Made by a program: the position numbers and the translations under genes
From: Acidimicrobiia bacterium
GTDB taxonomy: Bacteria > Actinomycetota > Acidimicrobiia > Acidimicrobiales > Aldehydirespiratoraceae
Length of the DNA: 64,000 nt
Direction of reading: 5' to 3'
NCBI GenBank assembly: GCA_021296315.1
Contig: JAGWAO010000006.1
Location: 8,977 to 72,976, forward strand
In this document: in pieces, positions 4-60,414 of the stretch
Layout of the letters: every line of letters begins with the position of its first letter
Position numbering within the stretch: the first letter of the stretch is position 1
Notes under the pieces: generated by a model
The model's database searches: none
Told to the model about the DNA's origin: nothing
What the model saw: only the letters and a program-made list of their open reading frames with translations

Positions 4-1914
4 GTGGACGTGACCCTGCGACGCGACGGATCGATCGAGGTGTCCGACAACGGTCGCGGCATCCCCGTAGACAGGCATCCCGACCGTGATGTGTCGGCTC
101 TCGAGGTGGTGTTCACTGAACTTCATGCCGGCGGGAAGTTCGGCGAGGGCGCCTACAAGGCGTCGGGCGGGCTGCACGGCGTGGGAGCGTCGGTCGTCAA
201 CGCCCTGTCCGCCCGTCTCGATGTGGAAGTGCGCCGAGACGGGTACTTCCACGAGCTGAGCTTCAAGGATCAGGAGCCCGGCCACTTCGTTGGCAGCAAG
301 TTCGTGCCGAGCAGCGACGTGCGGCCCGCCAGTCGACGCACCAAGGCAACCGGGACGAGGGTGAGATTCTGGCCGGATGCGGCTCTCTTCCATCCCGATG
401 CACGCATAGACGGCGACGAGGTGCGCAGCCGGGTCAGGCAGATGTGTTACCTGGTGGCGGGTGTGAGGATGACGGTTGCCGACAACCGGATCGGTGAGAG
501 TGTCGAGCCCTTCGACTTCGTGAGCAGGGGTGGTCTCGCCGACCTGGTGAAGGAGCGCTCCGAACGGTCCGGCGAGGACGCCGTCAGCGGGGTGATCACG
601 ATCAACGGCATAGAGCGCTTCACCGAGAAGGTCCCCGTCGACGGCAAGATCACCGAGGTTGAGAGGGAGTGCACCGTCGACATCGCGCTCCGCTGGGTGT
701 CGGGATACGACAGCGATGTGGAGTCGTTCGTGAACACGATCCCCACCAGTTCCGGCGGTACCCACCTCGCCGGGTTCGACAAGGCGCTGACGCGGGTGGT
801 CAACGGGGTCCTGCTCAAGGACAACCGCAAGCTGGCCCGCCTGGCCCGCGACGCCAGCGGGTCGGGCGCCAAGAACGGGCGGAGCAGCGCGGCCAAGACC
901 AGTGCCACCAAAGACGACGTGCGCGAGGGCCTGGTGGCGGCGGTCAAGGTGACCTTCTCGGAGCCGCAGTTCCGAGGCCAGACCAAACAGGAACTGGGTA
1001 CGCCGGCTATCGAGGGCATCGTGGCCAGGATCACCTATGAGCAGCTCAAGGAGTGGTTCGAGCCCGGAGGCGGCCCTCGCTCGCAGGTCAAGGCCATCGG
1101 CGACAAGCTGGCCGCCGCGGTAGTGAACCGCGTCGCTTCCAAGCAGATGCTCGACACCAAGCGCAAGGCGGCGAGCCTCGGCTCCACCGGCATGCCGGAC
1201 AAGCTGGCCGACTGCCGCATACATGGTCCCGAAGCCGAGCTGGTCCTGGTGGAGGGCGACTCGGCCGCAGGCCCGGCCAAGCGGGGCCGCGACTCGGAGT
1301 TCATGGCCATCCTGCCGCTGCGGGGCAAGATCGTGAACGCGGCCAAGGCGAGCCCCAAGCAGGTTCTCGACAACACCGAGGCCCAGGCCATCTTCACCGC
1401 TATGGGCGCCGGCGCGGGCGACGCCTTCGACATCGACGCCGCTCGCTACGGCCGGATCGTCATCCTGTGCGACGCAGACGTCGACGGCAGCCACATCCGC
1501 TGCCTGTTGCTGACCTTGATCCACGGGTACATGAGGGAGATGCTCGTTCAGGGCCGCGTCTTCTCGGCGCAGCCGCCGCTGTACACCGCCAAGGTCGGGG
1601 ACCGGACCTACCGGGTCTATTCCGACGATGAGCGCGATCGGATCACCGACGAACTCTGCCGGGGCAATCGCAGGGCTGAGAGCGTCAAGTGGCAGCGCTT
1701 CAAGGGCTTGGGGGAGATGAACACCGACGAACTCCGGCACTGTGCGCTGGATCCTGCGACGCGGACCCTGCGCCGACTCACCATGGCCGACGTACAGCAG
1801 GCCGACGCCGCGGCCGAGATGTTCGACGTTCTGATGGGCAGCGACGTGGCGTTGCGTCGCGACTATCTGGTCGAGAACTCCTCCCTGGTGGACGAGACGA
1901 CCCTCGACATCTAG
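4..1914 (+). CDS. type IIA DNA topoisomerase subunit B (GyrB/ParE family), 5'-truncated by window edge
   Basis: ORF open to the window edge. Motifs: ATP-lid GLHGVGASVVNALS, QTKQELG, Toprim EGDSAAG..LPLRGKIVN and DADVDGSHIRCLLLT, C-terminal KGLGEMN..LMGSDVALRRDYL. No A subunit follows downstream. Confidence 0.9.
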   Translation: MDVTLRRDGSIEVSDNGRGIPVDRHPDRDVSALEVVFTELHAGGKFGEGAYKASGGLHGVGASVVNALSARLDVEVRRDGYFHELSFKDQEPGHFVGSKFVPSSDVRPASRRTKATGTRVRFWPDAALFHPDARIDGDEVRSRVRQMCYLVAGVRMTVADNRIGESVEPFDFVSRGGLADLVKERSERSGEDAVSGVITINGIERFTEKVPVDGKITEVERECTVDIALRWVSGYDSDVESFVNTIPTSSGGTHLAGFDKALTRVVNGVLLKDNRKLARLARDASGSGAKNGRSSAAKTSATKDDVREGLVAAVKVTFSEPQFRGQTKQELGTPAIEGIVARITYEQLKEWFEPGGGPRSQVKAIGDKLAAAVVNRVASKQMLDTKRKAASLGSTGMPDKLADCRIHGPEAELVLVEGDSAAGPAKRGRDSEFMAILPLRGKIVNAAKASPKQVLDNTEAQAIFTAMGAGAGDAFDIDAARYGRIVILCDADVDGSHIRCLLLTLIHGYMREMLVQGRVFSAQPPLYTAKVGDRTYRVYSDDERDRITDELCRGNRRAESVKWQRFKGLGEMNTDELRHCALDPATRTLRRLTMADVQQADAAAEMFDVLMGSDVALRRDYLVENSSLVDETTLDI

Positions 1915-4009: not shown

Positions 4010-5251
4010 ATGGCTGCACGCGGTCGCATCAGCCAGGCGCTGTTGAGGGCAGGCTCGCGCTGGGCGCGCGACCTGCTGACGGTGCGCAGCGCCTTCGCGG
4101 CGCTGGTGATGGCTGCAATCGCCAGCCTGGTCGCCGGCCTGATCCTGGCGTCGATCACCGACACGCTGGAGGAATTGCCGGGTTTGTTGCTGCTGGTGCC
4201 GGCGGCGATCGCGGTGAAGGGCAACATCTTCGGGGCGCTGGGCAGCCGGCTGGGCACCGCCATCCATGCCGGCACATTCCGGCTGTCGAACCGGTGGGAC
4301 TCGGTGATGGCGGAGAACGCGGTCGCGTCGGTAACGCTGAGCCTCCTGCTGGGCGTGGCGTTGGCGATCATGGCCAAGGGCGCCGCGCTGGCCTTCAACA
4401 TCTCCCCGACGATGAGCCTCGCCGATTTCGTGGTGATCTCAGCGCTGGGGTGCCTGATAGCCGCCTTCGTGGTGCTGGCGATCACTCTGGCGACCACGGC
4501 CGGCGCGGTCCGATTCGGATGGGATCTGGACAACGTGGTCGCACCGATGGTGACGGTCGCGGGGGATGTGGTGACCCTGCCGTCGCTGGTGGTGGCGGCC
4601 GAGCTAGCCGGGTTCAAGATTCTCACGCCGTCGGTTGCGTGGGCGCTGGGCGTGCTGGCGGCCCTCTCGGCGGTGTGGGCTCTTCGAAGCGGGCTGATGG
4701 AGTTGCGCAAGATCATGCGCGAGTCGATACCCGTGCTGATCGCGGCGGGCATGCTCGACCTGGTGGCCGGGATCACGGTGGAGAAGCGCATCGAGGACTT
4801 TGTTGCCTTCCCGGTGCTGCTCGTTCTGCTGCCGGGCTACCTGGCCACGGCCGGAGCGCTCGGGGGTGTGCTGTCGAGCCGCCTGTCCACCAAGCTGCAT
4901 CTCGGCCTGGCCAGGCCCTCAGTAGTGCCCTCGGGAGAGGCGAGAGTCGATCTCGCCACCACTTTCGCAATGGCGATTCCGGTGTTCGCGCTGCTCGGCC
5001 TGGTGTCGTCGATCGCGGCCGGCCTGACGGGCCATGCCGGCCCTTCGCTGGCAGATCTGGTCGCGGTGGCTGTGCTCGGCGGCCTGCTGGCCACCGTGCT
5101 GATTGTGGTGGTTGCCTATTACGGAACGCTTGCAGCCGTGCGGTTCGGAGTCGACCCCGACACCTACGGCATTCCCATGGTCACGTCCTCGCTGGACTTG
5201 GCCGGGGCGTTCACCCTGATCGTCTCGGTGGTCCTGGTGGGCGTGGTCTAG
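4010..5251 (+). CDS. MgtE/SLC41-like divalent cation transporter (two MgtE membrane repeats, no cytosolic CBS domain)
   Basis: Two internal repeats carry the MgtE signature: PAAIAVKGNIFGALGSRLGTAIHAG and LPGYLATAGALGGVLSSRLSTKLHLG. Polytopic hydrophobic profile. Confidence 0.7.
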   Translation: MAARGRISQALLRAGSRWARDLLTVRSAFAALVMAAIASLVAGLILASITDTLEELPGLLLLVPAAIAVKGNIFGALGSRLGTAIHAGTFRLSNRWDSVMAENAVASVTLSLLLGVALAIMAKGAALAFNISPTMSLADFVVISALGCLIAAFVVLAITLATTAGAVRFGWDLDNVVAPMVTVAGDVVTLPSLVVAAELAGFKILTPSVAWALGVLAALSAVWALRSGLMELRKIMRESIPVLIAAGMLDLVAGITVEKRIEDFVAFPVLLVLLPGYLATAGALGGVLSSRLSTKLHLGLARPSVVPSGEARVDLATTFAMAIPVFALLGLVSSIAAGLTGHAGPSLADLVAVAVLGGLLATVLIVVVAYYGTLAAVRFGVDPDTYGIPMVTSSLDLAGAFTLIVSVVLVGVV

Positions 5252-5348
5252 AGGCCGAGTGGGAGGGAGCTCCTAATGAGAGTCTTCGCGACAATCCGAG
5301 CGAGGCCGTGGCCCGAGCGGCCCGTGAGCGAAGCGAACAAGAGCGGGC
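5248..5348 (+). repeat. modular interspersed repeat, copy A
   Basis: ctagaggccgagtgggagggagc, a spacer, then cgagcgaggccgtggcccgagcggcccgtgagcgaagcgaacaagagcggg. The first TAG is the stop of the MgtE-like gene. Confidence 0.9.
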
Positions 5349-5405
5349 ACTACTGACAGGCAAGGTGTCGCGCTTGAGACCTACGATGACTTGAGGAGGG
5401 ACCTG

Positions 5406-7977: not shown

Positions 7978-8055
7978 AGCCGGCGGGCATCGCTTCTGCC
8001 GGCTTCGTGCGGCGCCGATCGTCCGATCTGGCCGCCGGCCAGGAGCGTCCGCAAA

Positions 8056-8192
8056 CTAGTGAGAGTCCGTCGTGTCGCAGCGGTGTCATTCCCGCTCTTG
8101 TTCGCTGCGCTCACGGGCCGCTCGGGCCGCGGCCTCGCTCCGCGCCTCCGCAGAATCGTCCACAGATCGCTCCCTATCCGCTCGGCCTCTAG
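8056..8192 (-). repeat. modular interspersed repeat, copy B (with 3' tail)
   Basis: The reverse complement reads ctagaggccgagcggatagggagc...gagcgaggccgcggcccgagcggcccgtgagcgcagcgaacaagagcgggaatg. It starts 5 nt after the ChbG-like stop on the same strand. Confidence 0.9.
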
Positions 8193-15982: not shown

Positions 15983-16966
15983 ATGGTCGCCGCCGGGGTC
16001 CACATCGTGCCGCTGATGCCGTCCGGCGACGTCATCGCGCTGGCCGTGGAAGCAGAGCGGCTCGGATACGACTACTGCCTGGTGGCCGACGAGGGGTTCC
16101 ATCCCGATGTCTACGCCTGCCTGGGAGCAATTGCCCGGGCCACCGACCGGATAGTCCTCGGTGTGCTGACCAACGCGTACACGCGGCATCCGGCGGTGAC
16201 CGCGGCCGCGGCCGCCACCGTCAATGAACTGTCCGGGGGTCGGCTGGTGGTCACCCTGCTGGCCGGAGGATCGATGGTGCTCAGCCCGATGGGAATCGAG
16301 CGATCCCGCCCCGCCCGGGTGGTGGCCGACTGCGTGCAAGTGCTGAAGCGGCTGTGGTCGGGCCGGGAGGTGAGCTGGAGTGGCCAGACCTGCTCCCTCG
16401 ATCGGGCCCGGCTCGGCATGGGACCCCAGCCGATCCCCATCTGGATCGCCAGCCGGGGACCGCGCCTGCTGGAGCTGGCCGGACGTCAGGCCGACGGCGT
16501 CATCCTCACCGTCAAGCCCGATCTCGGCGCCGCTCTCAATCTCGTGGAGTCGGCCGCAGCGATGGCCGGTCGTCGCGAGCCTCAGCGCTTCTACCTGGGG
16601 CGGATCTGCTACACGCCGAAGCTGCTGGAAGGTCAGCGCCGAACGCTTTCGTTCGTGCTGATGGACTCGCCCCGCCGGGTGCTGGAGTCGCTGGGCCTCA
16701 GTGCCGACGAGATCGCGGTCGTGGAGCACGCCGCCGGAGCGAACCGTCCCGAGTTCGTCGACGAACTGGTGACCGGCGACCTGCTCCAGCGCTACCAGGT
16801 GTCCGGCACACCCACCGAGTGCCGGGCCGAGGTTGAGCAGTTGGCTGGCCGGCACGGCCTGGACGGCGTGCTGATCGACGCGCTGTCATCGGATCTCTCC
16901 GAGAACCTCGCCGTGCTGGAAGAGTCCCTGCCCCTCATCGGTGACGCCCAGAGGCCGAGCGGGTAG
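15983..16966 (+). CDS. LLM class F420-dependent oxidoreductase (Mer-like)
   Basis: ATG 15983. Motifs LGYDYCLVADEGFH, LGVLTNAYTRHP, GRLVVTLLAGG, ADGVILT. The last five codons and the TAG stop lie inside repeat copy C. Confidence 0.8.
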   Translation: MVAAGVHIVPLMPSGDVIALAVEAERLGYDYCLVADEGFHPDVYACLGAIARATDRIVLGVLTNAYTRHPAVTAAAAATVNELSGGRLVVTLLAGGSMVLSPMGIERSRPARVVADCVQVLKRLWSGREVSWSGQTCSLDRARLGMGPQPIPIWIASRGPRLLELAGRQADGVILTVKPDLGAALNLVESAAAMAGRREPQRFYLGRICYTPKLLEGQRRTLSFVLMDSPRRVLESLGLSADEIAVVEHAAGANRPEFVDELVTGDLLQRYQVSGTPTECRAEVEQLAGRHGLDGVLIDALSSDLSENLAVLEESLPLIGDAQRPSG

Positions 16967-17049
16967 GCGGCAATGCGTGAGAGTCCTGGTGGGGTGCTCA
17001 GCGAGGCCGTGGCCCGAGCGGCCCGTGAGCGCAGCGAACAAGAGCGGGA
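16948..17049 (+). repeat. modular interspersed repeat, copy C
   Basis: ccagaggccgagcgggtaggcggc...cagcgaggccgtggcccgagcggcccgtgagcgcagcgaacaagagcggga. The second TAG is the stop of the LLM gene. Confidence 0.9.
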
Positions 17050-17121
17050 TACACCACGCTGCATCGTGTGGGGCCATCACCGCCGCGGCGGGGCTGCCGC
17101 CCGGCCCTAGCATCTGCTCCT

Positions 17122-20247: not shown

Positions 20248-20326
20248 CCGCCGTCAGCTGAGGATGAGGCCGCCGTCAGCTGAGGATGAGGCCGCCGTCA
20301 GCTGAGGATGAGGCCGCCGTCAGCTG
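20248..20326 (-). repeat. 22-bp tandem repeat, 3.6 copies, copying the 3' end and stop codon of the SDR gene
   Basis: ccgccgtcagctgaggatgagg occurs at 20248, 20270 and 20292, plus a partial copy at 20314-20326. The functional TGA (20298-20300) is in the third copy. Confidence 0.9.
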
Positions 20327-25637: not shown

Positions 25638-26441
25638 GTGCGGGTCGTCACCTGGAACGTGAACTCCCTGAAGGCGCGCCTCGGCCGGGTGCAGCGCTGG
25701 ATCGAGTCCTTCTCGCCGGATGTGGTGTGCCTGCAGGAGACCAAACTCGCCGACGACGCGTTTCCCGGGCTGGCCTTCCAGTCGCTCGGATACGACTGCT
25801 TCCACAACGGGGAGGGACGCTGGAACGGTGTAGCGGTGCTGAGCAGGGTGGGGCTCACCGACCCAGTGGCCGGATTCGGGGCCGGCATCGAGCCCGACTG
25901 TGACGCCCGCCTGGCCTGGGCCACCTGCGGGGGCGTGCGGGTGGCGTCGTGCTACGTGCCCAACGGTCGGGCCGTCGGCCATGACCACTACCACTACAAG
26001 CTCGACTGGATGCGCCGGCTGAGAGCCTCCCTCGACGCTCAGGCCGATCCCGGTCGGCCCGTCCTGGTGTGCGGCGACTTCAACATCGCTCCCGACGATA
26101 GGGACGTGTACGACCCGGCCGCCTTCACCGACACCACCCACACCAGCGCGCCGGAGCGGGAGAGGCTCGCGGGCCTGCTCGAATGGGGCCTGGTCGATGT
26201 GTTCCGCGACCACCATGATGACGGCGGGCTGTTCACGTGGTGGGACTACCGGGGAGGCGACTTCCACAAGCGCAAGGGAATGCGCATCGACCTCGTTCTG
26301 GCCTCCCGGCCGGTCGCCGACGCGGCCAGCTTTGCGCTCATTGACCGCAATGAGCGCAAAGGCCCCAAGGACGATCCTCCCAGCGACCACGCGCCCCTGT
26401 TCATCGACTTGGAGGCCGAGCGGATGGGCGGCAACTGGTGA
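25638..26441 (+). CDS. xthA: exodeoxyribonuclease III
   Basis: MRVVTWNVNSLKARL..VVCLQETK..GDFNIAP..WWDYR..RIDLVL..PSDHAPL. The last nine codons and the stop are encoded by repeat copy D. Confidence 0.9.
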   Translation: MRVVTWNVNSLKARLGRVQRWIESFSPDVVCLQETKLADDAFPGLAFQSLGYDCFHNGEGRWNGVAVLSRVGLTDPVAGFGAGIEPDCDARLAWATCGGVRVASCYVPNGRAVGHDHYHYKLDWMRRLRASLDAQADPGRPVLVCGDFNIAPDDRDVYDPAAFTDTTHTSAPERERLAGLLEWGLVDVFRDHHDDGGLFTWWDYRGGDFHKRKGMRIDLVLASRPVADAASFALIDRNERKGPKDDPPSDHAPLFIDLEAERMGGNW

Positions 26442-26510
26442 GAACAGTTGAGGGGTGCCGAGCGAGGCCGTGGCCCGAGCGGCCCGTGAGCGCAGCGAAC
26501 GGGAGCGGGA
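26410..26510 (+). repeat. modular interspersed repeat, copy D
   Basis: ttggaggccgagcggatgggcggc...cgagcgaggccgtggcccgagcggcccgtgagcgcagcgaacgggagcggga. Overlaps the xthA 3' end. Confidence 0.9.
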
Positions 26511-26583
26511 GTGGCGCCGGCGCCAAGCGACGGGCTGTCACCCGTTCGCGCTCGCACCTGGACGAGGGCACCCTGGCGAAACC

Positions 26584-46957: not shown

Positions 46958-47018
46958 AGGACGGCAGCTTAAAGCGAGCGCGGACCGGTGGGAAGTCTGT
47001 AGCGTCGTTGCAGCGCCA

Positions 47019-47122
47019 TTCCCGCTCCTGTTCGCTGCGCTCACGGACCGCTCGGGCCACGGCCTGGCTGTACGCCTCACGAATTCGTCCACTGGCCGCA
47101 ACCTCTCCGATCGGCCTCCTGG
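47019..47122 (-). repeat. modular interspersed repeat, copy F
   Basis: The reverse complement reads ccaggaggccgatcggagagg...ccaggccgtggcccgagcggtccgtgagcgcagcgaacaggagcgggaat. Lies upstream of the small 46957 ORF on the same strand. Confidence 0.85.
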
Positions 47123-47176: not shown

Positions 47177-48862
47177 ATGGCACCGCTCGTTCTGGATGCG
47201 GCAACTTTGCGCCGCGCCATCGTCGGCTTCCACGGAGGACTCGCCGACCACCGCCAGGTGATCGACAATCTGAACGTCTATCCGGTCCCGGACGGCGACA
47301 CCGGAACCAACATGACGCTCACCATGCAGTCGGTCGTCGAGAGCCTCGACGGCGTCTCCGACGATCTTGAACCTCTGTGCACCGCAGTCGCACACGGAGC
47401 GCTCATGGGCGCCCGGGGCAACTCGGGGGTGATCCTGGCCCAGATCCTCAGAGGTGTGTCCGGCGTGCTGCGCGACTCGGCTGCAGCCGGCTCCGCGCCC
47501 GACGCACCGGTGGTGGCCCGAGCCCTGGCTGCCGCCAGCGACGGCGCGTACTCGGCGGTGGCCCGGCCCGTGGAGGGCACCATCCTCACGGTCATCCGCG
47601 AGGCCTCGGAGTCGGCCCAGGCCGCCGCCGCGGCCGGAGGGAACTTGACTGATGTATTCGACGCGGCCCGCGAGCGCGGCTATGACGCTCTGGATCGAAC
47701 CCCTGAGATGTTGGCGGTGCTGGCCGAGGCCGGGGTGGTGGACGCGGGTGGAGCCGGGCTGCTGCTGCTGTTCGATGCCTGTCTGGCCGAGGTCGACGGC
47801 CGGCCCATGCCCGAAGCCCCCGAGCCGCCGGCACCGCCCACAGCCGTCACCAGCGCGGCGGTACCGGCGGAGGAGTCGTCGATCGCAGACCTGCGCTACG
47901 AGGTGATGTTCCTGCTGGACGCGCCCGACCCCTCCGTCGACGGCTTCAAGGCTGCGTGGCAGACCATCGGGGACTCGATCGTCGTGGTGGGCGGGGACGG
48001 AATCTGGAACTGCCACATCCACACCGACGACATCGGCGCGGCCATCGAGGCCGGGATCGCGGTGGGCCGGCCCCACCGCATCCAGATCACGGACCTGCTC
48101 GACCAGGCGGCCGAGCACTCCGAGGCGTTCACGGCGCCGGAATCGGTACGCCCCGACGATGACGCCGTCATCGCGCCGCCCGTGCCGGTGGAGATCACCG
48201 AGGCCGACCGATGCTCGGTGGTGGCAGTGGGAGCCGGAGCGGGCGTGGTGGACATCCTCATGTCGATGGGGGCCCACCGCGTGGTGGCCGGCGGCCAGTC
48301 CATGAACCCCTCCACCGCGGAGTTGCTGGCAGCCGTCGACTCGCTTCCCACCGGCCATGTCGTGGTGCTGCCCAACAACAAGAACATCATCCCGGTGGCC
48401 GAACAGGTCGACGGCGAGACCGAGCGCACGGTGGGCGTCGTGCCCACTCGCAGCGTGGTCGAGGGGATCTCCAGCCTCCTGGCCTTCTCTCCGGGGGCCA
48501 CCGCGGCCCAGAACTCCGAGGCGATGGCAGTCGCAGCCGAATCGGTGACCCACGGCGAGGTCACCCAAGCTGTCCGTGACGCCTCCACTTCGGCTCGCCC
48601 CATCGCCGAGGGGGACTGGCTCGGCATCGGCCCCGACGGGATCGCGGCAGTTGAATCGGATGCGGCCGCGGCGGCGACCGCTCTGTTGGGCACCATCATC
48701 GACGACGACCACGAGTTGCTAACCGTGCTCACCGGCGTCGACGCGGACACCGTCACCACCGAGGCCATCGTCGGCTACGTGGCCGAGCACCATCCTGAGG
48801 TAGAAGTCGAGGTGTCAGACGGCGACCAGCCCCTGTACCCGTACTACTTCGGCCTGGAATAG
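47177..48862 (+). CDS. DAK2 domain fusion protein YloV
   Basis: NVYPVPDGDTGTNM and ARGNSGVIL (Dak2), followed by a DegV-like C-terminal half. It sits upstream of recG, the usual position. Confidence 0.85.
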   Translation: MAPLVLDAATLRRAIVGFHGGLADHRQVIDNLNVYPVPDGDTGTNMTLTMQSVVESLDGVSDDLEPLCTAVAHGALMGARGNSGVILAQILRGVSGVLRDSAAAGSAPDAPVVARALAAASDGAYSAVARPVEGTILTVIREASESAQAAAAAGGNLTDVFDAARERGYDALDRTPEMLAVLAEAGVVDAGGAGLLLLFDACLAEVDGRPMPEAPEPPAPPTAVTSAAVPAEESSIADLRYEVMFLLDAPDPSVDGFKAAWQTIGDSIVVVGGDGIWNCHIHTDDIGAAIEAGIAVGRPHRIQITDLLDQAAEHSEAFTAPESVRPDDDAVIAPPVPVEITEADRCSVVAVGAGAGVVDILMSMGAHRVVAGGQSMNPSTAELLAAVDSLPTGHVVVLPNNKNIIPVAEQVDGETERTVGVVPTRSVVEGISSLLAFSPGATAAQNSEAMAVAAESVTHGEVTQAVRDASTSARPIAEGDWLGIGPDGIAAVESDAAAAATALLGTIIDDDHELLTVLTGVDADTVTTEAIVGYVAEHHPEVEVEVSDGDQPLYPYYFGLE

Positions 48863-48883: not shown

Positions 48884-51028
48884 ATGCCCGAAGGCGACCC
48901 GCCCCTCAGCCTCCGGGACCTGGACGCCATCGGCGTCAGCCGGCTGAAGAAGGTCGGCCCGAAACGAGCTTCGGCGCTGGCCGAGATGGAAATCCACACC
49001 GTCCTCGACCTGCTGCAGCACTATCCTCGCCGGTACCTTGACCGCACCCGTCAGGCTCGGATAGCCGAACTGCTCGCAGATGAGGCCGCCACGGTGGTCG
49101 GGACGGTGCTGCGCGGCTCCACCCGGCGCATCAGAGGCGGCCGGTCGCTCACCGACATTGTTATCACCGACGATACCGGCCGGCTCAAGCTCTCGTTCTT
49201 CAATCAGGCGTGGCGAGAGCGCCAACTCGCCCCGGAGGCGACCGTAGTCGTCCACGGCCGCCCCACCCGCTACCGCGGCACCCTGCAGATGACCAACCCC
49301 GTGGTCGATCCGGTGGGCGATCGCACGGGCCGGATCATTTCTGTGTATCCGCAGTCGGACAAGGCGGGCGTTCGCACCTGGGACATCGCGGGCAGCGTCA
49401 ACGAGGCTCTCAACCGATGCCACGACAGGCGCATCGCCGATCCGGTTCCAGCGGCGGTGCAGCGCAGCTTGGGACTGGTCGAGCGCCACACCGCCCTGAA
49501 CTGGATCCACCGGCCCGCATCGATGGAGGAGTCGGTACGGGCTCGTAGACGCCTCGTGTTCGACGAACTGCTCCGGGTTCAACTGCAGTTGGTGAGACGC
49601 AAGCGCCGTCTTGAACTGCACACCGCCGGCCTGCGCCACGCCACCGACGGGGAGCTGGTGGAGCGCTTCTGGCGGAACCTGCCCTTTCTGCTGACCGACT
49701 CCCAGCGGAGGGTGATCGACGAGATCGCCTCCGATCTGGCCAAGCCGCATCCCATGCACCGGCTGCTTCAGGGAGATGTGGGCGCGGGCAAGACGGTCGT
49801 GGCTCTCAGTGCGCTCTTGGCAGCAGTTCAGGGCCGGTTCCAGGGAGCGCTCATGGCGCCGACGGAGGTGCTGGCCGAGCAGCATCTCGAGACCATGGTG
49901 TCGCTTCTGGGCGACCTGTCGGTGCCCGACGCCTCGAGGCTCGGCGGGGAACGGCCCCTGCGCGTGGAGCTGCTGTCGGGCCGGGTGGGGGCGGCCGAAC
50001 GCCGTCGCACTGTCGCCGGGCTGGCCTCGGGAGAGGTCGACATCGTCGTGGGCACTCACGCCTTGATCTCCGAGGGGCTGGAGTACAGGGCGCTGGGCGT
50101 GGTGGTGATCGACGAGCAGCACCGCTTCGGTGTGGAGCAGCGGGCCGTGCTGCGCGACAAGGGCCCGGGTTCGGTGACCCCCGACCTGCTGGTGATGACG
50201 GCGACGCCCATCCCGCGCACCGCAGCCATGACTGTCTACGGGGATCTCGACGTCTCGGTGCTGGACGAGTTGCCGCCCGGACGGGTGCCGGTGGCCACCT
50301 CATGGGCCCGCACCCCCCTGGAGGAAACCGGTGTCTGGAGTGAGGTACGCGGCGCGGTGGCCGCGGGGCGCCAGGCCTATGTGGTGTGCCCGGTCATCGA
50401 GGAATCCGAGGCCCTCGACGTTCGCTCGGTGATCGAGACCCATGAGCGCCTGACCGACGACGGCGGTGAGCTGGCCGGGCTTCGGGTCGGGCTCCTGCAC
50501 GGCCGGGTGACGCCGGCCGAGAAGGAGGCGACGATGGAACTGTTTCGGTCGGCCGCTCTGGACGTGCTTGTGGCCACCACGGTGATCGAGGTGGGCGTGG
50601 ACGTTCCCAATGCGACGGTGATGGTGGTGCTGGATGCGGACCGTTTCGGCATCGCGCAGCTCCACCAGCTTCGAGGCCGGGTGGGGCGGGCCGAGCACGC
50701 CTCGGTCTGCCACCTGGTAGGGGAGGCCTCCACTCCTGAAGCCAGAGCCCGGCTCGAGGCCGTGGTGTCCTCCAACGACGGCTTCGAGCTGGCCGAGTCC
50801 GACCTCGAGCTGCGGGGTGAGGGCACCCTGATGGGTGAGCGCCAGAAGGGCCGCAACGACTTGAGGCTGGCTTCGTTGCGCCGCGACAAGGAATGGGTGG
50901 AGAGGGCCAGGACGTCGGCTATCGACATGATCGACGCCGACGCCGAGTTGAGCCGGCATCCCGACCTGCTCGACGAGATCGAGTTCATGCTCGGAACCGA
51001 CGATGTCGAGTTCCTGCTGAAGAGCTAG
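48884..51028 (+). CDS. recG: ATP-dependent DNA helicase RecG
   Basis: Wedge domain, GDVGAGKT (motif I), DEQHRFG (II), TATPIPRT, LHGR, QLHQLRGRVGR. Confidence 0.92.
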   Translation: MPEGDPPLSLRDLDAIGVSRLKKVGPKRASALAEMEIHTVLDLLQHYPRRYLDRTRQARIAELLADEAATVVGTVLRGSTRRIRGGRSLTDIVITDDTGRLKLSFFNQAWRERQLAPEATVVVHGRPTRYRGTLQMTNPVVDPVGDRTGRIISVYPQSDKAGVRTWDIAGSVNEALNRCHDRRIADPVPAAVQRSLGLVERHTALNWIHRPASMEESVRARRRLVFDELLRVQLQLVRRKRRLELHTAGLRHATDGELVERFWRNLPFLLTDSQRRVIDEIASDLAKPHPMHRLLQGDVGAGKTVVALSALLAAVQGRFQGALMAPTEVLAEQHLETMVSLLGDLSVPDASRLGGERPLRVELLSGRVGAAERRRTVAGLASGEVDIVVGTHALISEGLEYRALGVVVIDEQHRFGVEQRAVLRDKGPGSVTPDLLVMTATPIPRTAAMTVYGDLDVSVLDELPPGRVPVATSWARTPLEETGVWSEVRGAVAAGRQAYVVCPVIEESEALDVRSVIETHERLTDDGGELAGLRVGLLHGRVTPAEKEATMELFRSAALDVLVATTVIEVGVDVPNATVMVVLDADRFGIAQLHQLRGRVGRAEHASVCHLVGEASTPEARARLEAVVSSNDGFELAESDLELRGEGTLMGERQKGRNDLRLASLRRDKEWVERARTSAIDMIDADAELSRHPDLLDEIEFMLGTDDVEFLLKS

Positions 51029-51036
51029 GTCTGAGA

Positions 51037-51579
51037 GTGAGTATTCGTGTCGTGGCGGGCTCGGCCAAGGGCCGCCGGCTGGCAGCTCCCGATGGCCTCC
51101 TCACCCGGCCCACCCCCAACCGAGTGCGCGAGGCCGTGTTCAACTCGCTCTACTCGCTCGATGCCATCGACGGTGCCCGGGTTCTGGACCTCTTCGCCGG
51201 CACGGGTGCCTTGGGGATCGAGGCGCTGAGCCGGGGCGCGGCCGAAGCGGTGTTCGTCGAGCGCGACCAGGCGGTGGCCGACGTGCTGCGCAGCAACCTC
51301 GAGGCCACCCGCTTGGCGGACGCAGCCACCGTCATGGTCGTCGACGTGGAAGCGGCTCTCGCCGACCTGGCGTGTGGCCGCTTCGATGTCGCACTCGTGG
51401 ATCCCCCGTACGCCTTCGACGCTTGGCCGGAGTTGCTGTCGCGGGTTCCAGCTGAACTGGTCGTGGCCGAGTCGGATCGTCCGGTGGATGTGGGGCCGCG
51501 CTTTGCCATCCACCATCACAGGCGTCACGGCGGTACCGTGGTGACGTTCGCACAAGCTGCCGAGAGGCCGAGCGGATAG
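51037..51579 (+). CDS. rsmD: 16S rRNA (guanine966-N2)-methyltransferase RsmD
   Basis: GTG 51037. Motifs GRRL..P..LLTRPTPNRVREAVFN, LDLFAGTGALGIEALSRGA, VDPPY. The last five codons and the TAG stop lie inside solo repeat module I. Confidence 0.85.
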   Translation: MSIRVVAGSAKGRRLAAPDGLLTRPTPNRVREAVFNSLYSLDAIDGARVLDLFAGTGALGIEALSRGAAEAVFVERDQAVADVLRSNLEATRLADAATVMVVDVEAALADLACGRFDVALVDPPYAFDAWPELLSRVPAELVVAESDRPVDVGPRFAIHHHRRHGGTVVTFAQAAERPSG

Positions 51580-51585
51580 GGAGCA
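51563..51585 (+). repeat. solo 5' module of the interspersed repeat (copy I)
   Basis: gagaggccgagcggatagggagc. Only the first position differs from the module of copy B. Contains the rsmD stop and the GGGAG preceding the coaD GTG. Confidence 0.7.
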
Positions 51586-51589
51586 ATCA

Positions 51590-52075
51590 GTGACCCGTGT
51601 GCTGTACCCCGGATCCTTCGACCCGATCCACTACGGCCATCTCGAGATCATCGAGACCATCGCCCAACTATTCGATGAGGTGGTCGTGGCGGCCATGCGC
51701 AATCCCCAGAAGGGGGAGGGCCTGTTCAGCCTCGACGAGCGGGAGCAGATGATCAAGGAGTGCTGCGCTCACCTGCCCAATGTCTCGGTCGCGATGTTCT
51801 CCAACCTGGTGGTCAGTCTGGCCCGAGACCTGGAGGCCGACTTCATCGTCAAGGGGCTGAGGGCGGTCTCCGACTTTGAGAACGAGCTTCAGATGGCCCA
51901 GATGAACCACGCTCTGGCCGGTGTGCAGACGATCTTCATCCCCTCAGCCAGCAAGAGGTCGTTCGTGGCCTCCAAGCTGATCCGCGAGGTCGTCCGCCTC
52001 GGCGGGGACGTCTCATCCATGGTGCCTGAGTCGGTCCAGGCGCGGCTGGGCGGCCGTTTCGAGCAGGAACAATGA
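51590..52075 (+). CDS. coaD: pantetheine-phosphate adenylyltransferase
   Basis: VLYPGSFDPIHYGHLEII, and ..GLRAVSDFENELQMA. Confidence 0.92.
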   Translation: MTRVLYPGSFDPIHYGHLEIIETIAQLFDEVVVAAMRNPQKGEGLFSLDEREQMIKECCAHLPNVSVAMFSNLVVSLARDLEADFIVKGLRAVSDFENELQMAQMNHALAGVQTIFIPSASKRSFVASKLIREVVRLGGDVSSMVPESVQARLGGRFEQEQ

Positions 52076-54925: not shown

Positions 54926-55617
54926 CAGCTCAGGCCGCTTCGGCGGACACTGCGACGCTGATGGACCGGCTTGGCCACCGGTTCGATGACGCCGCGTTGC
55001 TCGAGTTGGCCTTGACCCATCGCTCCTGGAGCGCGGAGCACTCGGGATCGTCCTCCAATGAGCGGCTGGAGTTCCTCGGAGACGCTGTCCTGGGCCTTGT
55101 CGTGACCCAGAGGCTCTACTCGCGTTTCGGCGAATGGTCCGAAGGCGACCTGGCCAAGACCCGCGCCTCGCTCGTCAACTCGGCCATGCTGGCCGTGGTG
55201 GGCAGATCGATCGGCCTGGGCGACCTGCTGCGCCTGGGCCGGGGGGAGGTCGCTTCGGGAGGCCGCGAGAAGTCCTCGATCCTGGCCGACGCGATTGAGG
55301 CGGTGATCGGGGCGGTATATCTCGACGGCGGCATCGGCGCGGCCGACAATGCCGTCGGCCGACTCCTCGGCTCGCGCATCGATGCAGCTGCCCGCGCTCC
55401 CGGCCACGCCGACTTCAAGACAAGGCTCCAGGAACTGGCGGCCCGTCTAGGATTCGCCCCGCCGGTCTACGAAGTGACCACCAGCGGGCCTCCGCACGAC
55501 ACGATGTTCGAAGCCAGGGTTCATGCCGGCACCGCCAGCGGCATCGGCAGGGGAAGCAGCAAGAAGGACGCCGAACAGCACGCGGCCGAGATCGCCTACG
55601 CGACTCTCGCCCCAGAG
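54922..55617 (+). CDS. rnc: ribonuclease III (catalytic plus dsRBD region; no stop codon of its own, the ORF continues in frame to 56655)
   Basis: ALTHRSW..NERLEFLGDAVL (signature), ADAIEAVIGAVYLD, dsRBD DFKTRLQE..GSSKKDAEQHAA. Start is TTG 54922 (TTGA overlap with the acp stop) or ATG 54961. Confidence 0.85.
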
Positions 55618-55757
55618 GCCCAGCGGCCCGTGAGCGCAGCGAACAAGAGCGGGCAATCAGAGGCCCAGCGGCCCGTGAGCGCAGCGAACAAGCGCAGCGA
55701 ACAAGAGCGGGCAATCAGAGGCCCAGCGGCCCGTGAGCGCAGCAAGAAGGAGCGGGC
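55613..55757 (+). repeat. three tandem truncated units of the interspersed repeat (copy G)
   Basis: Units of 45, 58 and about 42 bp: cagaggcc|cagcggcccgtgagcgcagcgaacaagagcgggcaat. The 5' module is joined directly to the core box. Unit 2 carries an extra 13-bp gcgcagcgaacaa duplication. Confidence 0.9.
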
Positions 55758-55791
55758 ACACCGAGTCCGACCGTGTTGCGGAGGTCAAGTC

Positions 55792-56730: not shown

Positions 56731-59700
56731 GTGTATCTGAAGACGCTGACGCTGAAGGGCTTCAAGTCCTTCGCCGAGCCGGCCTCGATCCGCTTGGAGC
56801 CGGGGGTCACAGTGGTCGTCGGCCCTAATGGAAGCGGCAAGTCGAACGTTGTGGACGCGGTGGCCTGGGTTCTGGGCGCCCAAGCGCCCAGCGCGGTGCG
56901 CTCCGCTCGGATGGACGATGTGATCTTCGCGGGCACGGCCCACAAGCCTGCACTGGGCCGGGCCGAGGTCTCGCTGACGATCGACAACTCCGACAGAATG
57001 CTGCCGATGGCGGCCAGCGAGGTGCGGATCACCCGCACCCTGTTCCGCAGCGGCGAGTCGACCTACGCGCTGAACGGCACCCCGTGCCGGCTGCTGGACA
57101 TCGTCGAGCTGCTCTCGGACACCGGCGTGGGCCGCCAGCAGCACATGATCGTGTCGCAGAGCCAGATAGACGCCGTTCTGAACGCCCGCCCCGCCGATCG
57201 CCGGGTGGTAGTGGAGGAGGCGGCCGGAATCCGCAAGTACCGCAAGAGGCGGGAGCGGGCCGAGCGCCGACTGCTCGCCAGCGACGGGGACCTGACCCGG
57301 ATGAGCGACCTCCTGAGGGAAGTGCGTCGGCGGCTGCGCCCCCTGCAGAAGCAGGCCGAGGCAGCCCGCCGGCATGCCGATCTGCTGTCCGAACTGGAGG
57401 CGCTGCGAGTGCACCTGGCCGGCCGCGAGATCGCCGGCATGCGCGAGCAACTGCGGCTCCACAAGGAGCAGGGGGAGGCTCAGGCGGTTCTGCAAGCCGA
57501 TCTTCGAGCCGAACTCGACGATCTCAACGCCAGCGTTGCCACCGACGAGCAGCGGCTGGCCCGCCACGGAATGGACGACCACTCAGAGCGCCTGGCCCGC
57601 CTCGAAGGGCTCCGGGCCAGAGCGGCCGGTCTGGCCGCCGTCGCGGTCGAGCGCCAGCGGGGCATCGAGCACCAGAGGGCCGCCCTCGCCGACCATGATC
57701 TGGCTGCGGGACTGCAAGCCGAGCTGGAGCGTTGCCGAAAGGAGCTCTCCGCGGTCGTGTTGTCGGCCGCGGCGGCCGACTCCGATCGCCGCCGTCTCGA
57801 GCATTTGCAGGAACGCTTGGAAGCCGACCGAGCCGCGTTTGGGGCCCGATGGGGCGACGTGATGGGGTTCGACGTCGGTATGGCGAGCGAGGCTGCCGAG
57901 GCCAGGGGCGAGCTGTCGGCGCTGCAGTCGACGATCGAGCTCAGCCAATCGGAGCAGCATCGCCTCGCCGAACGATTGGAGGAGTCCGAGCGTCGCCTGC
58001 AGGACTTGGCCGGGCGGGTTGACGACCACCGCGGCGAATTGGACCGGTGCGACCGGCGGATCGCGGCGCGGCGTGCGGAGCTCGCGGTGGCGGAGGCCGC
58101 TCTAGCTGATGCCTCGAGTGCGCTGGAAGGCGCGGTCGAGGCCCGTGCGGAGGCCGAGGGCGAATTGCGGCACTGGACCGCGAGGAGCGAGGCCCTCGCA
58201 ATGGCCCTCGAAGAGGCCGCCAGACCGGTGCCCGTCGATGTGCAGGCCGCGACCGATGACGTCTTGGGACTGCTGGGGGGCCTGGTGGAGGTGGATCCAG
58301 GCGTCGAAGCCGCCTTCGCGGCCGCGGCCGGCGACGCGATCAGCGCTGTCGTGGTGCGGCACGCCGCCACGGCCCGACGCGTGCTCGACAGCGTAGAGGC
58401 CAGCGATGCCGGCGCGGCGGTGATCGCCCTGGAGGGCAACGGCTCTGACGGCGCGACCGGTATGCCGGTGCACCGCCTCGGGCTGGAGCCGTTGCGGGGT
58501 CGTGTCCGCGCCGCCGATCCGGATGTGGACCGCCTCCTGGACGTGCTGCTCGCCTCCACGGCCCTCGTGGAGGGCGATTGGCGTACCGCGGCCGACACCT
58601 GGATGCGGCACGCCGGTGTTGTCGTGGTCACCCCGGCCGGCGACCGGTTGAGCAGCCGAGGTTGGCGACTCGGCGTGCACGGCGCGGCCGGGCTCCGGCC
58701 CGCGCTGGCAGAGGCCGAACAGCGGGTCGAGGCCGCGCGCAAGGCGCGTGAACGGGCCGATGCCGCCTGCGAATCAGCCCGGAGCGGACTGGACGAGAGT
58801 CGAGAAAGAGTCGACGAGTTCGGTGGTCGACTGGCCGCAATCGAAGGTTCCGCGGCGTCGGCGACCGACGCCATCAATCGCGCCGAGTCCGATCGCCGTG
58901 ACCTCGACACCGCGAGCAGCACCCTGCGCGACCACCTGACGGAGACAACCCGCCGTCTCGACGAGGCTGTCGGCAGGGCTGCACAGATCGAATCAAGGCT
59001 GCCCGAGTTGGAGCAGGCCGAGGCCAAGGCCCGACAGCGAAGCCGTGAGGCGGCTGAGGCCCGCTCATCCCTCGACCGGCGTGCATCCGAGGTGGCGTTG
59101 ATGGCCGCTGAGCAGAGCGCAACCGATGCCGGGCTGGAGCAGCGCCAGCAGATGCTGCAAGCCCGTGCTTCTGAATTGGAGGACCGGCTGGCTCGTCACC
59201 GTGCTTCGCGGGCCGCAGCCACCGATCGCATGGCCGGGCTGGAGCGCGAGGCGACCGTGCTCGACGCGCTCAGACGGGCGGTGGAGGAGCGGACGGGGAT
59301 CCTCAACGCGGGCCTAGCCGAGATCCGGGAGGTACGTCGCAGGCACTCAGAGGAGGTCCGGGCCCTGGCCGCGAGCCTCGACGACCTGCGACGCCGGCAT
59401 GCCGACGCCGAGAGTCGCTACGACACCCTGCGCCAGGCTGAGAGCCGCCGTGACATCGAGGAAGCCGAGCTGCGCACCTTGCTGCAGGGGGCGGTCGAGC
59501 GTCTGCGCGACGCCTACGGCCTGTCCCCGCAACAGGCAGCCTCCGCACCGTTGCCGGAACTGCCCGACGGACTCGGCCCCGACCAGCGGATGGATCAGCT
59601 GGCTGCCGAGTTGGAGATAATGGGTCCCGTCAATCCCCTGGCTCTGGCCGAGTACGACGAGCTCTACGAGCGTCACGAGTTGCTCAGCGGCCAGATGGAC

Positions 59701-60222: not shown

Positions 60223-60322
60223 TCCGGCGACCAGTCGAGGTCCTGCTGCCAAGGCTGGTAGTCGCCCGCCACTACCGAACATGCGCGGGCAGGTGCAAAC
60301 CCGTCGCGTCGGGGCGGGTGTC

Positions 60323-60414
60323 TCCCGCTCTCGCTCGCTGCGCTCACGGGCCGCTCGGGCCACGGCCTCGCCTGGATGAACCTGATTCGCTTGCCTACCC
60401 GCTCGGCCTCTAGC
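60323..60414 (-). repeat. modular interspersed repeat, copy H
   Basis: The reverse complement reads gctagaggccgagcgggtaggcaagc...ggcgaggccgtggcccgagcggcccgtgagcgcagcgagcgagagcggga. Lies between smc and the htrA-like gene, antisense to both. Confidence 0.9.

What the first reader, a model, noticed from the sequence alone, without database searches (positions are those of the whole stretch)
51563..51592. Solo repeat module works as a stop / Shine-Dalgarno / start cassette at the rsmD-coaD junction
The 23-nt solo module GAGAGGCCGAGCGGATAGGGAGC supplies the last codons of rsmD (..ERPSG), its TAG stop, and a GGGAG motif. Five nt (caatc) plus an A separate that motif from the coaD GTG at 51590. Full-length copies A and B keep the same layout: GGGAGC, 5 nt, then ATG (5275) or GTG (copy B, minus strand). 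The module therefore looks like a portable translational-coupling junction. Alternatively, the family arose from such a junction.
Basis: seen in the sequence. Interest (0 to 1): 0.6.

Follow-up and report, generated by a model that had tools for sequence, protein, structure and literature searches.

The report
Leftover transposon end at rsmD-coaD junction
The 23-base "module" is the leftover end of a small, very abundant jumping-DNA element; it rewrote the last codons and the stop of rsmD, but the ribosome-binding site and start codon of coaD were there before it, so this is an ordinary transposon scar with one curious twist.

Summary
GAGAGGCCGAGCGGATAGGGAGC lies at 51562-51584, holds the last five rsmD codons and its TAG (51577-51579), and ends 5 nt before the coaD GTG (51590).

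The module is the 5' terminal inverted repeat of an IS5-family-derived MITE. This 2.66-Mb genome has about 270 copies of the element's core and 36 truncated "solo" 5' ends.

Thirty-six same-genus genomes show the ancestral junction: a longer RsmD tail whose TGA overlaps the coaD GTG (GTGA), with GGAG 7 nt upstream. That form also occurs in relatives that lack the MITE. So the start codon and a Shine-Dalgarno site are native. The module replaced only the RsmD tail and moved the stop 14 nt upstream.

GGGAGC-N5-NTG occurs in 10 of 112 long copies and in none of the 85 shorter ones. It falls in the least conserved part of the element, so it is not a family feature.

The cassette idea is therefore only partly supported, and the idea that the family arose from this junction is refuted.

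One point remains unexplained. The module state needs at least three changes on the local tree. Its 22-nt core is identical in species whose 4-fold sites differ by 23-38%. Recurrent capture, gene conversion or selection could each account for this.

The parts
51037..51579 (+). rsmD (16S rRNA m2G966 methyltransferase). The start is inferred as GTG 51037, with an in-frame alternative at GTG 51052. The stop is TAG at 51577-51579.
   Evidence: ORF. TIGR00095 scores 120.8 bits and PF03602 covers residues 1-165 of the 175-aa form. The conserved domain ends before the module-coded tail.
51562..51584 (+). Solo 5' module GAGAGGCCGAGCGGATAGGGAGC. It is the truncated 5' terminal inverted repeat of the MITE plus about 6 nt. 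The 22 nt at 51563-51584 are identical in relatives G011 and G018.
   Evidence: solo, no core within 140 nt; family consensus; matches IS end GAGGCCGCGCGGATAGG; identity across species.
51577..51579 (+). TAG stop of rsmD, supplied by the GGATAGG part of the module. It lies 10 nt before the coaD start.
   Evidence: Relatives without the module stop at a TGA that overlaps the GTG. The same module TAG ends 13 other genes in this genome.
51580..51583 (+). GGAG Shine-Dalgarno core for coaD, 6 nt before the GTG. It lies at the crossover between module-derived and native sequence.
   Evidence: Ancestral junctions have CCGGAGCC(N5)GTG with GGAG 7 nt before the GTG. SD function is inferred, not tested.
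51585..51592 (+). Native spacer AATCA plus the coaD GTG start. ATCAGTGA matches the ancestral junction 8 of 8 and the MITE consensus ATTCGTGA only 6 of 8.
51590..52075 (+). coaD (pantetheine-phosphate adenylyltransferase).
   Evidence: TIGR01510 scores 183 bits, with protein residues 4-154 on profile positions 2-152. The N-terminus is identical in all same-genus relatives.
8043..8189 (-). Full-length L1 copy (copy B), 147 nt. It follows the TAG of the upstream gene (8198-8989, minus strand). Its 5' 36 nt are 92% identical to the solo locus.
   Evidence: (inverted repeat I14).
5251..5349 (+). Copy A (L1 type, no recognisable 3' end). The TAG at 5249-5251 of the upstream gene straddles its 5' edge. 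GGGAGC-N5-ATG has the ATG at 5276-5278, and no gene uses that ATG.
16951..17065 (+). L1 copy. It has GGCGGC instead of GGGAGC and a GTG at the same offset. Its 3' end was not mapped.
26412..26557 (+). Full L1 copy, 146 nt, with GGCGGC-AACTG-GTG.
46972..47118 (-). Full L1 copy, 147 nt.
60277..60410 (-). Full L2 copy, 134 nt, with no SD-like motif and no NTG.
55613..55773 (+). Tandem array of truncated core units of the same family, with a 45/58-nt period.
   Evidence: families D3 and D8.

Best explanation
The module is a scar: the outer 5' end (terminal inverted repeat) of a non-autonomous IS5-family MITE that litters this genome.

Shown:
- The family has inverted ends that match those of a roughly 0.96-kb IS5-family IS in relatives. 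That IS carries a transposase matching NF033580 and is flanked by a TAA/TAA duplication.
- The element's 5' edge usually abuts or overlaps the stop codon of the gene upstream.
- In the ancestral rsmD-coaD junction (T1), RsmD had a longer, unconserved tail (..AARGGPILAGADQ*). Its TGA overlapped the coaD GTG (GTGA, -4 spacing), and GGAG lay 7 nt upstream.
- In the window's genome about 21 nt of that tail are replaced by AGAGGCCGAGCGGATAGGGAGC.

Inferred:
- A MITE entered the end of rsmD, or a MITE copy served as a repair or conversion template. Everything beyond the first 22-25 nt was then lost across short homologies shared by the element and the native junction (AGAGGC on the left, GGAGC/GAT on the right).
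- In the resulting frame the module's own TAG ends RsmD five codons later, 10 nt before the unchanged coaD GTG. The terminating ribosome therefore sits on the GGAG, and coaD can still be translated by reinitiation or by direct SD binding.

The module thus supplies the tail and the stop, at most rewrites the SD, and does not supply the start. It is not a conserved cassette of the family.
For: - Family size: about 270 cores genome-wide. Three length classes: L1 112 copies, L2 48, S 37.
- Ends: IS copies in relatives begin GAGGCCGCGCGGAT.. and end ..CCGCGCTCGCTC. They are flanked by TAA/TAA and score above the NF033580 cut-off. In the window's genome 13 of 92 copies have identical 3-nt flanks against 3.9 expected.
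- Stops of upstream genes fall at offsets 0 or +1 (38 copies), +16 (7 full, 6 solo) and +30 (13 full, 5 solo).
- There are 36 true solo modules.
- Junction series in 36 same-genus genomes. T1 occupies the deep branches. It is present in genomes with 0-25 MITE cores (G012, G029, G028). Module-bearing junctions occur only in genomes with 64-250 cores.
- ATCAGTGA and the coaD N-terminus are identical to T1.
- The RsmD domain ends at residue 165-168 of 175.
- GGGAGC-N5-NTG is found in 10 of 112 L1 copies and 0 of 85 L2+S copies. These positions are only 40-60% conserved against more than 92% for the inverted repeat.
- The ORFs that follow the NTG in copies A and B are in different frames.
Against: - No genome with a full-length MITE between rsmD and coaD was found among 36 relatives or in the one close metagenome contig. 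The step from insertion to deletion is therefore inferred.
- One or two extra bases (G, C, A or GA) lie between GCTGCC and AGAGGCC. A simple in-register recombination does not predict them.
- The 22-nt core is identical in G000, G011 and G018 although 4-fold sites differ by 0.23-0.38. A neutral scar inherited once should have decayed.
Confidence: 0.75

Rival explanations
1. Selected portable junction cassette. The MITE 5' end is kept or repeatedly recruited at tight operon junctions. The reason would be that it offers stop codons in two frames (TAG at +13..15, TGA at +27..29) plus the stop at the duplicated target, a purine-rich SD-like stretch, and an NTGA start/stop overlap.
For: - 36 solo modules, about 14 of them in co-directional junctions with the downstream start 20-50 nt from the module start. 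Four have the start exactly at +26, where L1 copies carry NTG.
- A second locus, rplK-rplA, shows TAG-AGGCCGAGCGGA..-GGAGCGACC-ATG in several relatives.
- The module state at rsmD-coaD needs at least 3 changes on the local tree, and the AU test rejects a single clade at p = 3e-29.
- The 22-nt core is identical across species with 0.23-0.38 divergence at 4-fold sites. G011 reads it in a different frame, so protein-level selection cannot explain the identity.
- Full copies in co-directional gene pairs are co-oriented with the genes 34 to 17.
- MIRUs are a precedent (PMC12548453).
Against: - SD and NTG are the least conserved positions of the element, and L2 and S copies lack them.
- At both loci examined the SD and the start are native.
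- There is no RNA structure at the junction (z = -0.15).
- Downstream starts lie 2-119 nt after full copies, with no peak at an overlap.
- Identity across species is equally expected if each lineage copied the conserved MITE consensus independently.
Confidence: 0.15
2. MIRU-like relay. L1 copies would carry a short ORF of about 40 codons, running from the NTG at +26 to the stop in the 3' target duplication. Its translation would pass ribosomes from the upstream gene to the downstream one. The solo would be a collapsed version of that relay.
For: - 65 of 112 L1 copies have NTG at +25..27, and 52 of these are in one frame relative to the core.
- 12 of these ORFs end after exactly 40 codons, at the stop in the 3' flank, and 19 run on past the element.
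- 13 upstream genes end at the TGA of that NTGA, which is -4 spacing.
Against: - An open 40-codon frame is expected in about 44% of cases by chance at 69% G+C. The observed rate of 63% is only modestly higher.
- The frames of copies A and B differ.
- No downstream start overlaps the element's end.
- L2 and S copies have no such ORF.
Confidence: 0.05
3. The repeat family arose from a stop/SD/start junction such as this one.
For: The native rplA ribosome-binding site GGGAGCGA(T/C)C-ATG, and the rsmD-coaD GGAGCCGATCA-GTGA, resemble the L1 interior GGGAGCGATTC-ATGA.
Against: - The module equals the end of an autonomous IS5-family IS.
- Genomes with no copy of the family carry the module-free junction.
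- Module-bearing junctions appear only in MITE-rich genomes.
Confidence: 0.02

Closest known systems
Bacterial MITEs derived from IS5-family insertion sequences (IS427/IS1031-type, transposase model NCBIfam NF033580)
   Same: Both have short inverted ends that match an autonomous IS in related genomes and a 3-bp duplication of an A/T-containing target (TNA-like). Both lack a conserved ORF and reach hundreds of copies. In a 69% G+C genome such targets survive mainly at stop codons.
   Different: Only the ends are shared with the IS. The interior includes an almost invariant core of about 49 nt of unknown role and forms 44-45-nt tandem arrays. The object of this finding is only a 22-25-nt end fragment.
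MITEAba12 of Acinetobacter baumannii (PMC6382973)
   Same: This is a documented case of a MITE end fusing to a neighbouring gene. Thirty-one bases of the MITE give a new tail and stop codon to one gene. In other strains, bases reading out of the inverted repeat give the first four codons of the next gene.
   Different: There the fusion truncates a gene into a likely pseudogene and the element stays whole. Here the enzyme domain is intact, only an unconserved tail is swapped, and most of the element is gone.
Mycobacterial interspersed repetitive units, MIRUs (as summarised in PMC12548453)
   Same: Both are short dispersed repeats inside operons. MIRUs are thought to be tolerated because an internal ORF is translationally coupled to the flanking genes with NTGA overlaps.
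   Different: MIRUs keep the overlapping start and stop as a family-wide feature. In this family SD and NTG are minority, poorly conserved features. Downstream starts do not overlap the element's end. At rsmD-coaD the element removed an NTGA overlap rather than creating one.
Rickettsia palindromic elements (RPE) and other in-frame repeat insertions
   Same: A mobile repeat becomes part of a coding sequence without destroying the protein.
   Different: RPEs insert whole and in frame inside genes. Here only five codons and a stop at the extreme C-terminus come from the element.

Membership tests
IS5-family-derived MITE (the repeat family to which the module belongs) | Terminal inverted repeats matching those of an autonomous IS of the family | tested here: met
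   IS copies of about 0.96 kb in G034, G023, G004, G003 and G024 begin GAGGCCGCGCGGAT(T/A)G and end ..CCGCGCTCGCTC. They enclose an ORF that scores above the NF033580 cut-off. The MITE ends are GAGGCCGAGCGGATAGG and CCTATCCGCGCTCGCTC.
IS5-family-derived MITE (the repeat family to which the module belongs) | Short target-site duplication (3 bp, TNA-like) | tested here: met
   IS copy L079 is flanked by TAA/TAA. Among MITE copies, 13 of 92 have identical 3-nt flanks against 3.9 expected, with a maximum of 12 in 1000 re-pairings. The flanks are dominated by TGA, TCA, TTA, TAA and CTA. The signal is weak because copies are old and the 3' end is hard to place.
IS5-family-derived MITE (the repeat family to which the module belongs) | Non-autonomous: no transposase and no conserved ORF | tested here: met
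   Copies are 130-150 nt long. The window's genome has no PF01609, PF13340 or NF033580 match. The internal ORFs of copies A and B are in different frames.
IS5-family-derived MITE (the repeat family to which the module belongs) | The solo module is a fragment of that element and not a look-alike | tested here: met
   The 23-mer matches copy B at 22 of 23 bases, and the similarity extends to 36 nt at 92%. The reversed-pattern control gives 0 hits. The module is absent from the junction in genomes that lack the family.
MIRU-like translational-coupling repeat | An internal ORF whose start overlaps the upstream stop and whose stop overlaps the downstream start, as a family-wide feature | tested here: not met
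   The upstream stop overlaps the NTG (offset +30) in only 13 of 187 copies. Downstream starts lie 2-119 nt after the element with no overlap peak. NTG is present in 58% of L1 copies and in no L2 or S copy.
MIRU-like translational-coupling repeat | Co-orientation with the flanking operon | tested here: inconclusive
   In co-directional gene pairs, 34 copies are co-oriented and 17 are anti-oriented. This is a bias, not a rule.
Structured RNA element (Rfam family or hairpin with the NTG in its loop) | A conserved secondary structure | tested here: not met
   There is no Rfam match at the gathering threshold. RNAalifold on 112 L1 copies finds almost no consensus pairs. The mean folding energy of the interior is -12.5 kcal/mol against -13.2 for shuffles. 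The junction RNA has z = -0.15.

The most novel reading that the evidence does not exclude
The outer 22 nt of this MITE might be more than a passive scar. It would be repeatedly copied into, or selectively kept at, the ends of genes in tight operons (rsmD-coaD, rplK-rplA and about a dozen other junctions). There it would serve as a ready-made terminator of translation in two frames next to the downstream ribosome-binding site. This would explain two things: why the junction state is homoplastic on the local tree, and why the 22-mer is identical in species whose silent sites differ by 23-38%.
Probability: 0.15. Interest if true: 0.6.

Novelty: new member of a known kind. Interest (0 to 1): 0.33.

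Why it matters
For annotation, gene ends and starts next to these repeats are easily mis-called. RsmD here ends in five transposon-coded residues, and at least 31 genes in this genome stop inside the element.

For biology, the case shows in one orthologous series how a MITE end can replace an overlapping NTGA stop/start junction with a spaced one, and how small frame changes decide which stop is used (T2, T3, T4, T5).

The repeated appearance of an unchanged 22-mer at one junction is worth following. It may be a measurable case of ectopic conversion, or of selection, acting on very short transposon-derived sequence in uncultured Acidimicrobiia. Otherwise the finding is an ordinary transposon remnant.

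Tried and rejected
- Hairpin idea (the NTG conserved because it sits in a hairpin loop): rejected. The L1 interior folds no better than shuffles, and RNAalifold finds no consensus helix.
- SD-ATG as a relic of the parent transposase's start: rejected. Beyond the inverted repeat the IS interior (GTGACCATCCACCGG..) is unrelated to the L1 interior, and the transposase starts about 100 nt further in.
- Rfam search of the window: no match.
- Transposase in the window's own genome: none found. The assembly is 86% complete, so absence is not proof.
- Intermediate with a full MITE between rsmD and coaD: none in 36 relatives. The metagenome scan gave only one close contig, and it has the T1 junction.
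The near-identical junction in the independent genome G034 argues against an assembly artefact.
- Comparable count of solo 3' ends: not feasible. The 3' inverted repeat is too variable, at 40-90% conservation per position.
- Literature: no paper in the library combines MITE, Acidimicrobiia and sponge.

Full report
**1. The observation**

The window reads ..GCT GCC GAG AGG CCG AGC GGA TAG GGAGCAATCA GTG ACC CGT...

- The rsmD TAG is at 51577-51579, GGGAGC at 51579-51584, and the coaD GTG at 51590.
- Both gene names hold. RsmD matches TIGR00095 and PF03602; CoaD matches TIGR01510.
- The conserved RsmD domain ends at residue 165-168 of 175, so the module-coded ERPSG lies outside it.
- Copy B (8169-8191, minus strand) differs from the module at one base. 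Copies A and B both show GGGAGC-N5-NTG; the ATG of copy A is at 5276-5278.
- Chance is excluded. Zero matches were expected in shuffles, and genome-wide there are 73 hits against 0 for the reversed control.

**2. What the module belongs to**

The whole genome (2.66 Mb, 83 contigs, 69% G+C) holds about 270 copies of an almost invariant core, GGCCCGAGCGGCCCGTGAGCGCAGCGAAC.

Most cores are preceded by the 5' anchor GAGGCCGAGCGG at one of three distances. This defines the classes L1 (about 60 nt, 112 copies), L2 (about 49 nt, 48 copies) and S (about 22 nt, 37 copies), plus tandem core arrays.

Complete copies are 130-150 nt long. Their ends are inverted: 5' GAGGCCGAGCGGATAGG and 3' CCTATCCGCGCTCGCTC.

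Earlier notes of this scan called the family an IS5-type MITE. I treated that as a lead and tested it.
- Relatives carry elements of about 0.96 kb that start GAGGCCGCGCGGAT.. and end ..CCGCGCTCGCTC.
- These elements enclose an ORF above the cut-off of NF033580 (an IS5-family transposase model). One copy is flanked by TAA/TAA.
- In the window's genome, 13 of 92 copies keep identical 3-nt flanks against 3.9 expected. The flanks are mostly TNA-like.
- No transposase is present in the window's genome.

The family is therefore a non-autonomous MITE that shares only its ends with the IS. The module is its 5' inverted repeat plus a few bases.

**3. Relation to genes**

I used a simple codon-score gene call (2430 genes, 89.5% coding). 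The stop of the co-directional upstream gene falls as follows:
- right before GAGGCC (TGA or TAA; 18 copies);
- one base into it (TA+G; 20 copies);
- at the module's own TAG in GGATAGG (offset +16; 7 full copies and 6 solos, including rsmD);
- at the TGA of the L1 NTGA (offset +30; 13 full copies and 5 solos).

The rsmD arrangement therefore recurs. In this GC-rich genome the A/T-containing motifs at the element's 5' end act as stop codons for genes that read into it.

**4. Is SD-N5-NTG a property of the family?**

No.
- GGGAGC occurs in 13 of 112 L1 copies, and GGGAGC-N5-NTG in 10.
- Any SD-like tetramer occurs in 28 L1 copies, and NTG at +25..27 in 65.
- L2 and S copies have neither feature.
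- These positions are 40-60% conserved, against more than 92% for the first 11 nt of the inverted repeat.
- SD-like motif and NTG are mildly associated (odds ratio 3.5, p = 0.015). I read this as subfamily structure.
- The NTG is not in a conserved hairpin.
- It is not the parent transposase's start either.
- The short ORFs that follow it in copies A and B are in different frames.

**5. The junction in relatives (the decisive test)**

CoaD was found in 60 of 61 related genomes. I read the junction in 36 same-genus genomes and several outgroups.

- T1 (18 genomes; all deep branches except G031, plus many crown genomes): GCT GCC AGA GGC GGC CCG ATC CTC GCC GGA GCC GAT CAG TGA, with the TGA overlapping the coaD GTG (GTGA) and GGAG 7 nt upstream. 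Deep variants keep the same codon count (..GAA GGC GGC CCG CAC CCT TCC GGA GCC CAC TAG TG).
- T2 (8 genomes, one clade): GCC AAG AGG CCG AGC GGA ACT GGA GCC GAT CAG TGA.
- T3 (G000, G034, G018): GCC NAG AGG CCG AGC GGA TAG, followed by GGAGC-N-ATCA-GTG.
- T4 (G011): GCC GAA GAG GCC GAG CGG ATA GGG AGC GAT CAG TGA.
- T5 (G005, G007): the same as T4 with 15 nt missing.
- T6 (G023): a diverged module with other sequence after it.
- Four genomes (G013, G032, G009, G031) have other, module-free junctions.

In every genome the coaD N-terminus and ..ATCAGTGACC or its equivalent are unchanged.

Genomes with no cores, or almost none, have T1 or another module-free junction. These are G012, G031 and G013 (0 cores), G009 (4), G028 (7), G032 (9) and G029 (25). 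Module-bearing junctions occur only in genomes with 64-250 cores.

Three conclusions follow.
- The start codon and a functional-looking SD predate the module.
- The module replaced about 21 nt of an unconserved RsmD tail.
- Only in T3 is the module's TAG in frame. In T2, T4 and T5 RsmD reads through the module and still ends at the ancestral TGA that overlaps the GTG.

The stop-start spacing changed from -4 to +10 nt. A recent review places such spacing within the range where translational coupling still works (PMC12548453).

Neither junction RNA is unusually structured.

**6. How it arose (inferred)**

No relative, nor the one close metagenome contig, has a whole MITE at this junction.

The crown-group T1 sequence resembles the element on both sides.
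- On the left, CCAGAGGC is identical to the common 5' flank plus inverted repeat.
- On the right, GGAGCCGATCAGTGA resembles the L1 interior GGGAGCGATTCGTGA.

The T4/T5 sequence GGGAGCGAT|CAGTGA is exactly L1 joined to native sequence at GAT. I therefore favour one of two routes: insertion followed by microhomology deletion, or short-patch conversion from one of the hundreds of MITE copies.

The odd one or two bases before AGAGGCC (G, C, A or GA) differ between lineages. An in-register join would fuse rsmD to coaD in frame, so these bases may be frame-restoring changes. That remains speculation.

**7. The unexplained part**

On a tree of the 3.3 kb flanking the junction, with the junction itself excluded, the module state needs six changes. 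At least three are forced by well-supported branches. G018 (T3) is nested with 100% support among T1 genomes.

The AU test rejects a single clade of module carriers at p = 3e-29. The group was defined after the tree had been seen, but the effect is very large.

The 22-mer AGAGGCCGAGCGGATAGGGAGC is identical in G000, G011 and G018, although 4-fold sites of rsmD and coaD differ by 0.23-0.38. The expected number of differences is 5-8, and the probability of none is about 3e-3 to 3e-5 (my arithmetic). G011 reads the 22-mer in another frame, so selection on the protein cannot explain the identity.

Three explanations remain:
- independent copying of the conserved MITE consensus into this site, which I favour;
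- short-tract exchange between lineages;
- selection at the nucleotide level.

**8. A second locus**

At rplK-rplA, several relatives have TAG-AGGCCGAGCGGA(..)GGAGCGACC-ATG. Others have a module-free spacer with the same native ribosome-binding site, GGGAGCGA(C/T)C-ATG. The window's genome has a whole MITE followed by a solo module. Here too the SD and the start are native, and the module sits between the stop and the SD.

Genome-wide there are 36 true solos. About 14 lie in tight co-directional junctions, and four have the downstream start at +26.

Full copies in co-directional gene pairs are co-oriented 34 to 17. They are followed by the next start at 2-119 nt, without any overlap peak.

**9. 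Comparison with known systems**

- The kind is known. MITE ends that give neighbouring genes new tails, stops or first codons are documented for MITEAba12 (PMC6382973).
- MIRUs are the precedent for repeats tolerated through translational coupling (PMC12548453), but their defining overlap architecture is not met here.
- No description of this family was found in the searched literature.

**10. Verdict**

The alternative origin from such a junction is refuted. This is an ordinary MITE remnant, with a modestly interesting signal of recurrence or conservation.

Noticed in passing
genome-wide; in the window e.g. 5298-5347, 8091-8140, 17001-17055, 26462-26511: The roughly 49-nt centre of the element (GAGCGAGGCCGTGGCCCGAGCGGCCCGTGAGCGCAGCGAACAAGAGCGGGA) is 90-99% conserved at every position across about 270 copies. 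It is present in 36 of 39 same-genus genomes, at 4 to 386 copies each. It is not shared with the parent IS. Its role is unknown.
   Followed up: partly
window 55588-55773; also contig C13 about 50811-51030 and C30 about 47221-47380 of the genome: Core units form head-to-tail arrays with a 44-45-nt period. Very short copies exist in which the 5' anchor is fused directly to the core through the repeated CCGAGCGG motif (for example TAG|AGGCCGAGCGGCCCGTCAGCG). This suggests frequent slippage or deletion between internal short repeats.
   Followed up: partly
window 32853-35285 (+), repeats at 33080-35156: An 811-aa ORF consists of about 28 tandem 72-nt (24-aa) units with the pattern L..L.L..N.L.G.IP.ELG.L. 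This looks like a plant-type leucine-rich-repeat protein, a eukaryote-like protein in a bacterial genome.
   Followed up: no
genome contig C40, minus strand, about 56940-57500 (rplK-rplA spacer): rplK ends at a TAG that straddles a MITE. A run of about 340 N lies inside the spacer. A second, truncated module then directly precedes the rplA SD and ATG. Relatives show every intermediate between a perfect module and an unrecognisable spacer at this site.
   Followed up: partly
L020 (genome G023), rsmD-coaD junction: This relative has a diverged module (GAGAGACCGAGTGGACAG), followed by unrelated A-rich sequence. The last roughly 25 nt of rsmD plus the module start are partly duplicated about 70 nt upstream.
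   Followed up: no
window 20248-20326: Three and a half perfect copies of a 22-nt unit (CCGCCGTCAGCTGAGGATGAGG) lie between the genes at 19111-20142 (+) and 20298-21080 (-), and the last copies overlap the 3' end of the latter.
   Followed up: no
window 51037 vs 51052: The likely rsmD start is GTG 51037 (MSIRVVAGSAKGRRL..), only 8 nt after the recG TAG (51026-51028). The longest-ORF ATG at 50893 overlaps recG.
   Followed up: partly
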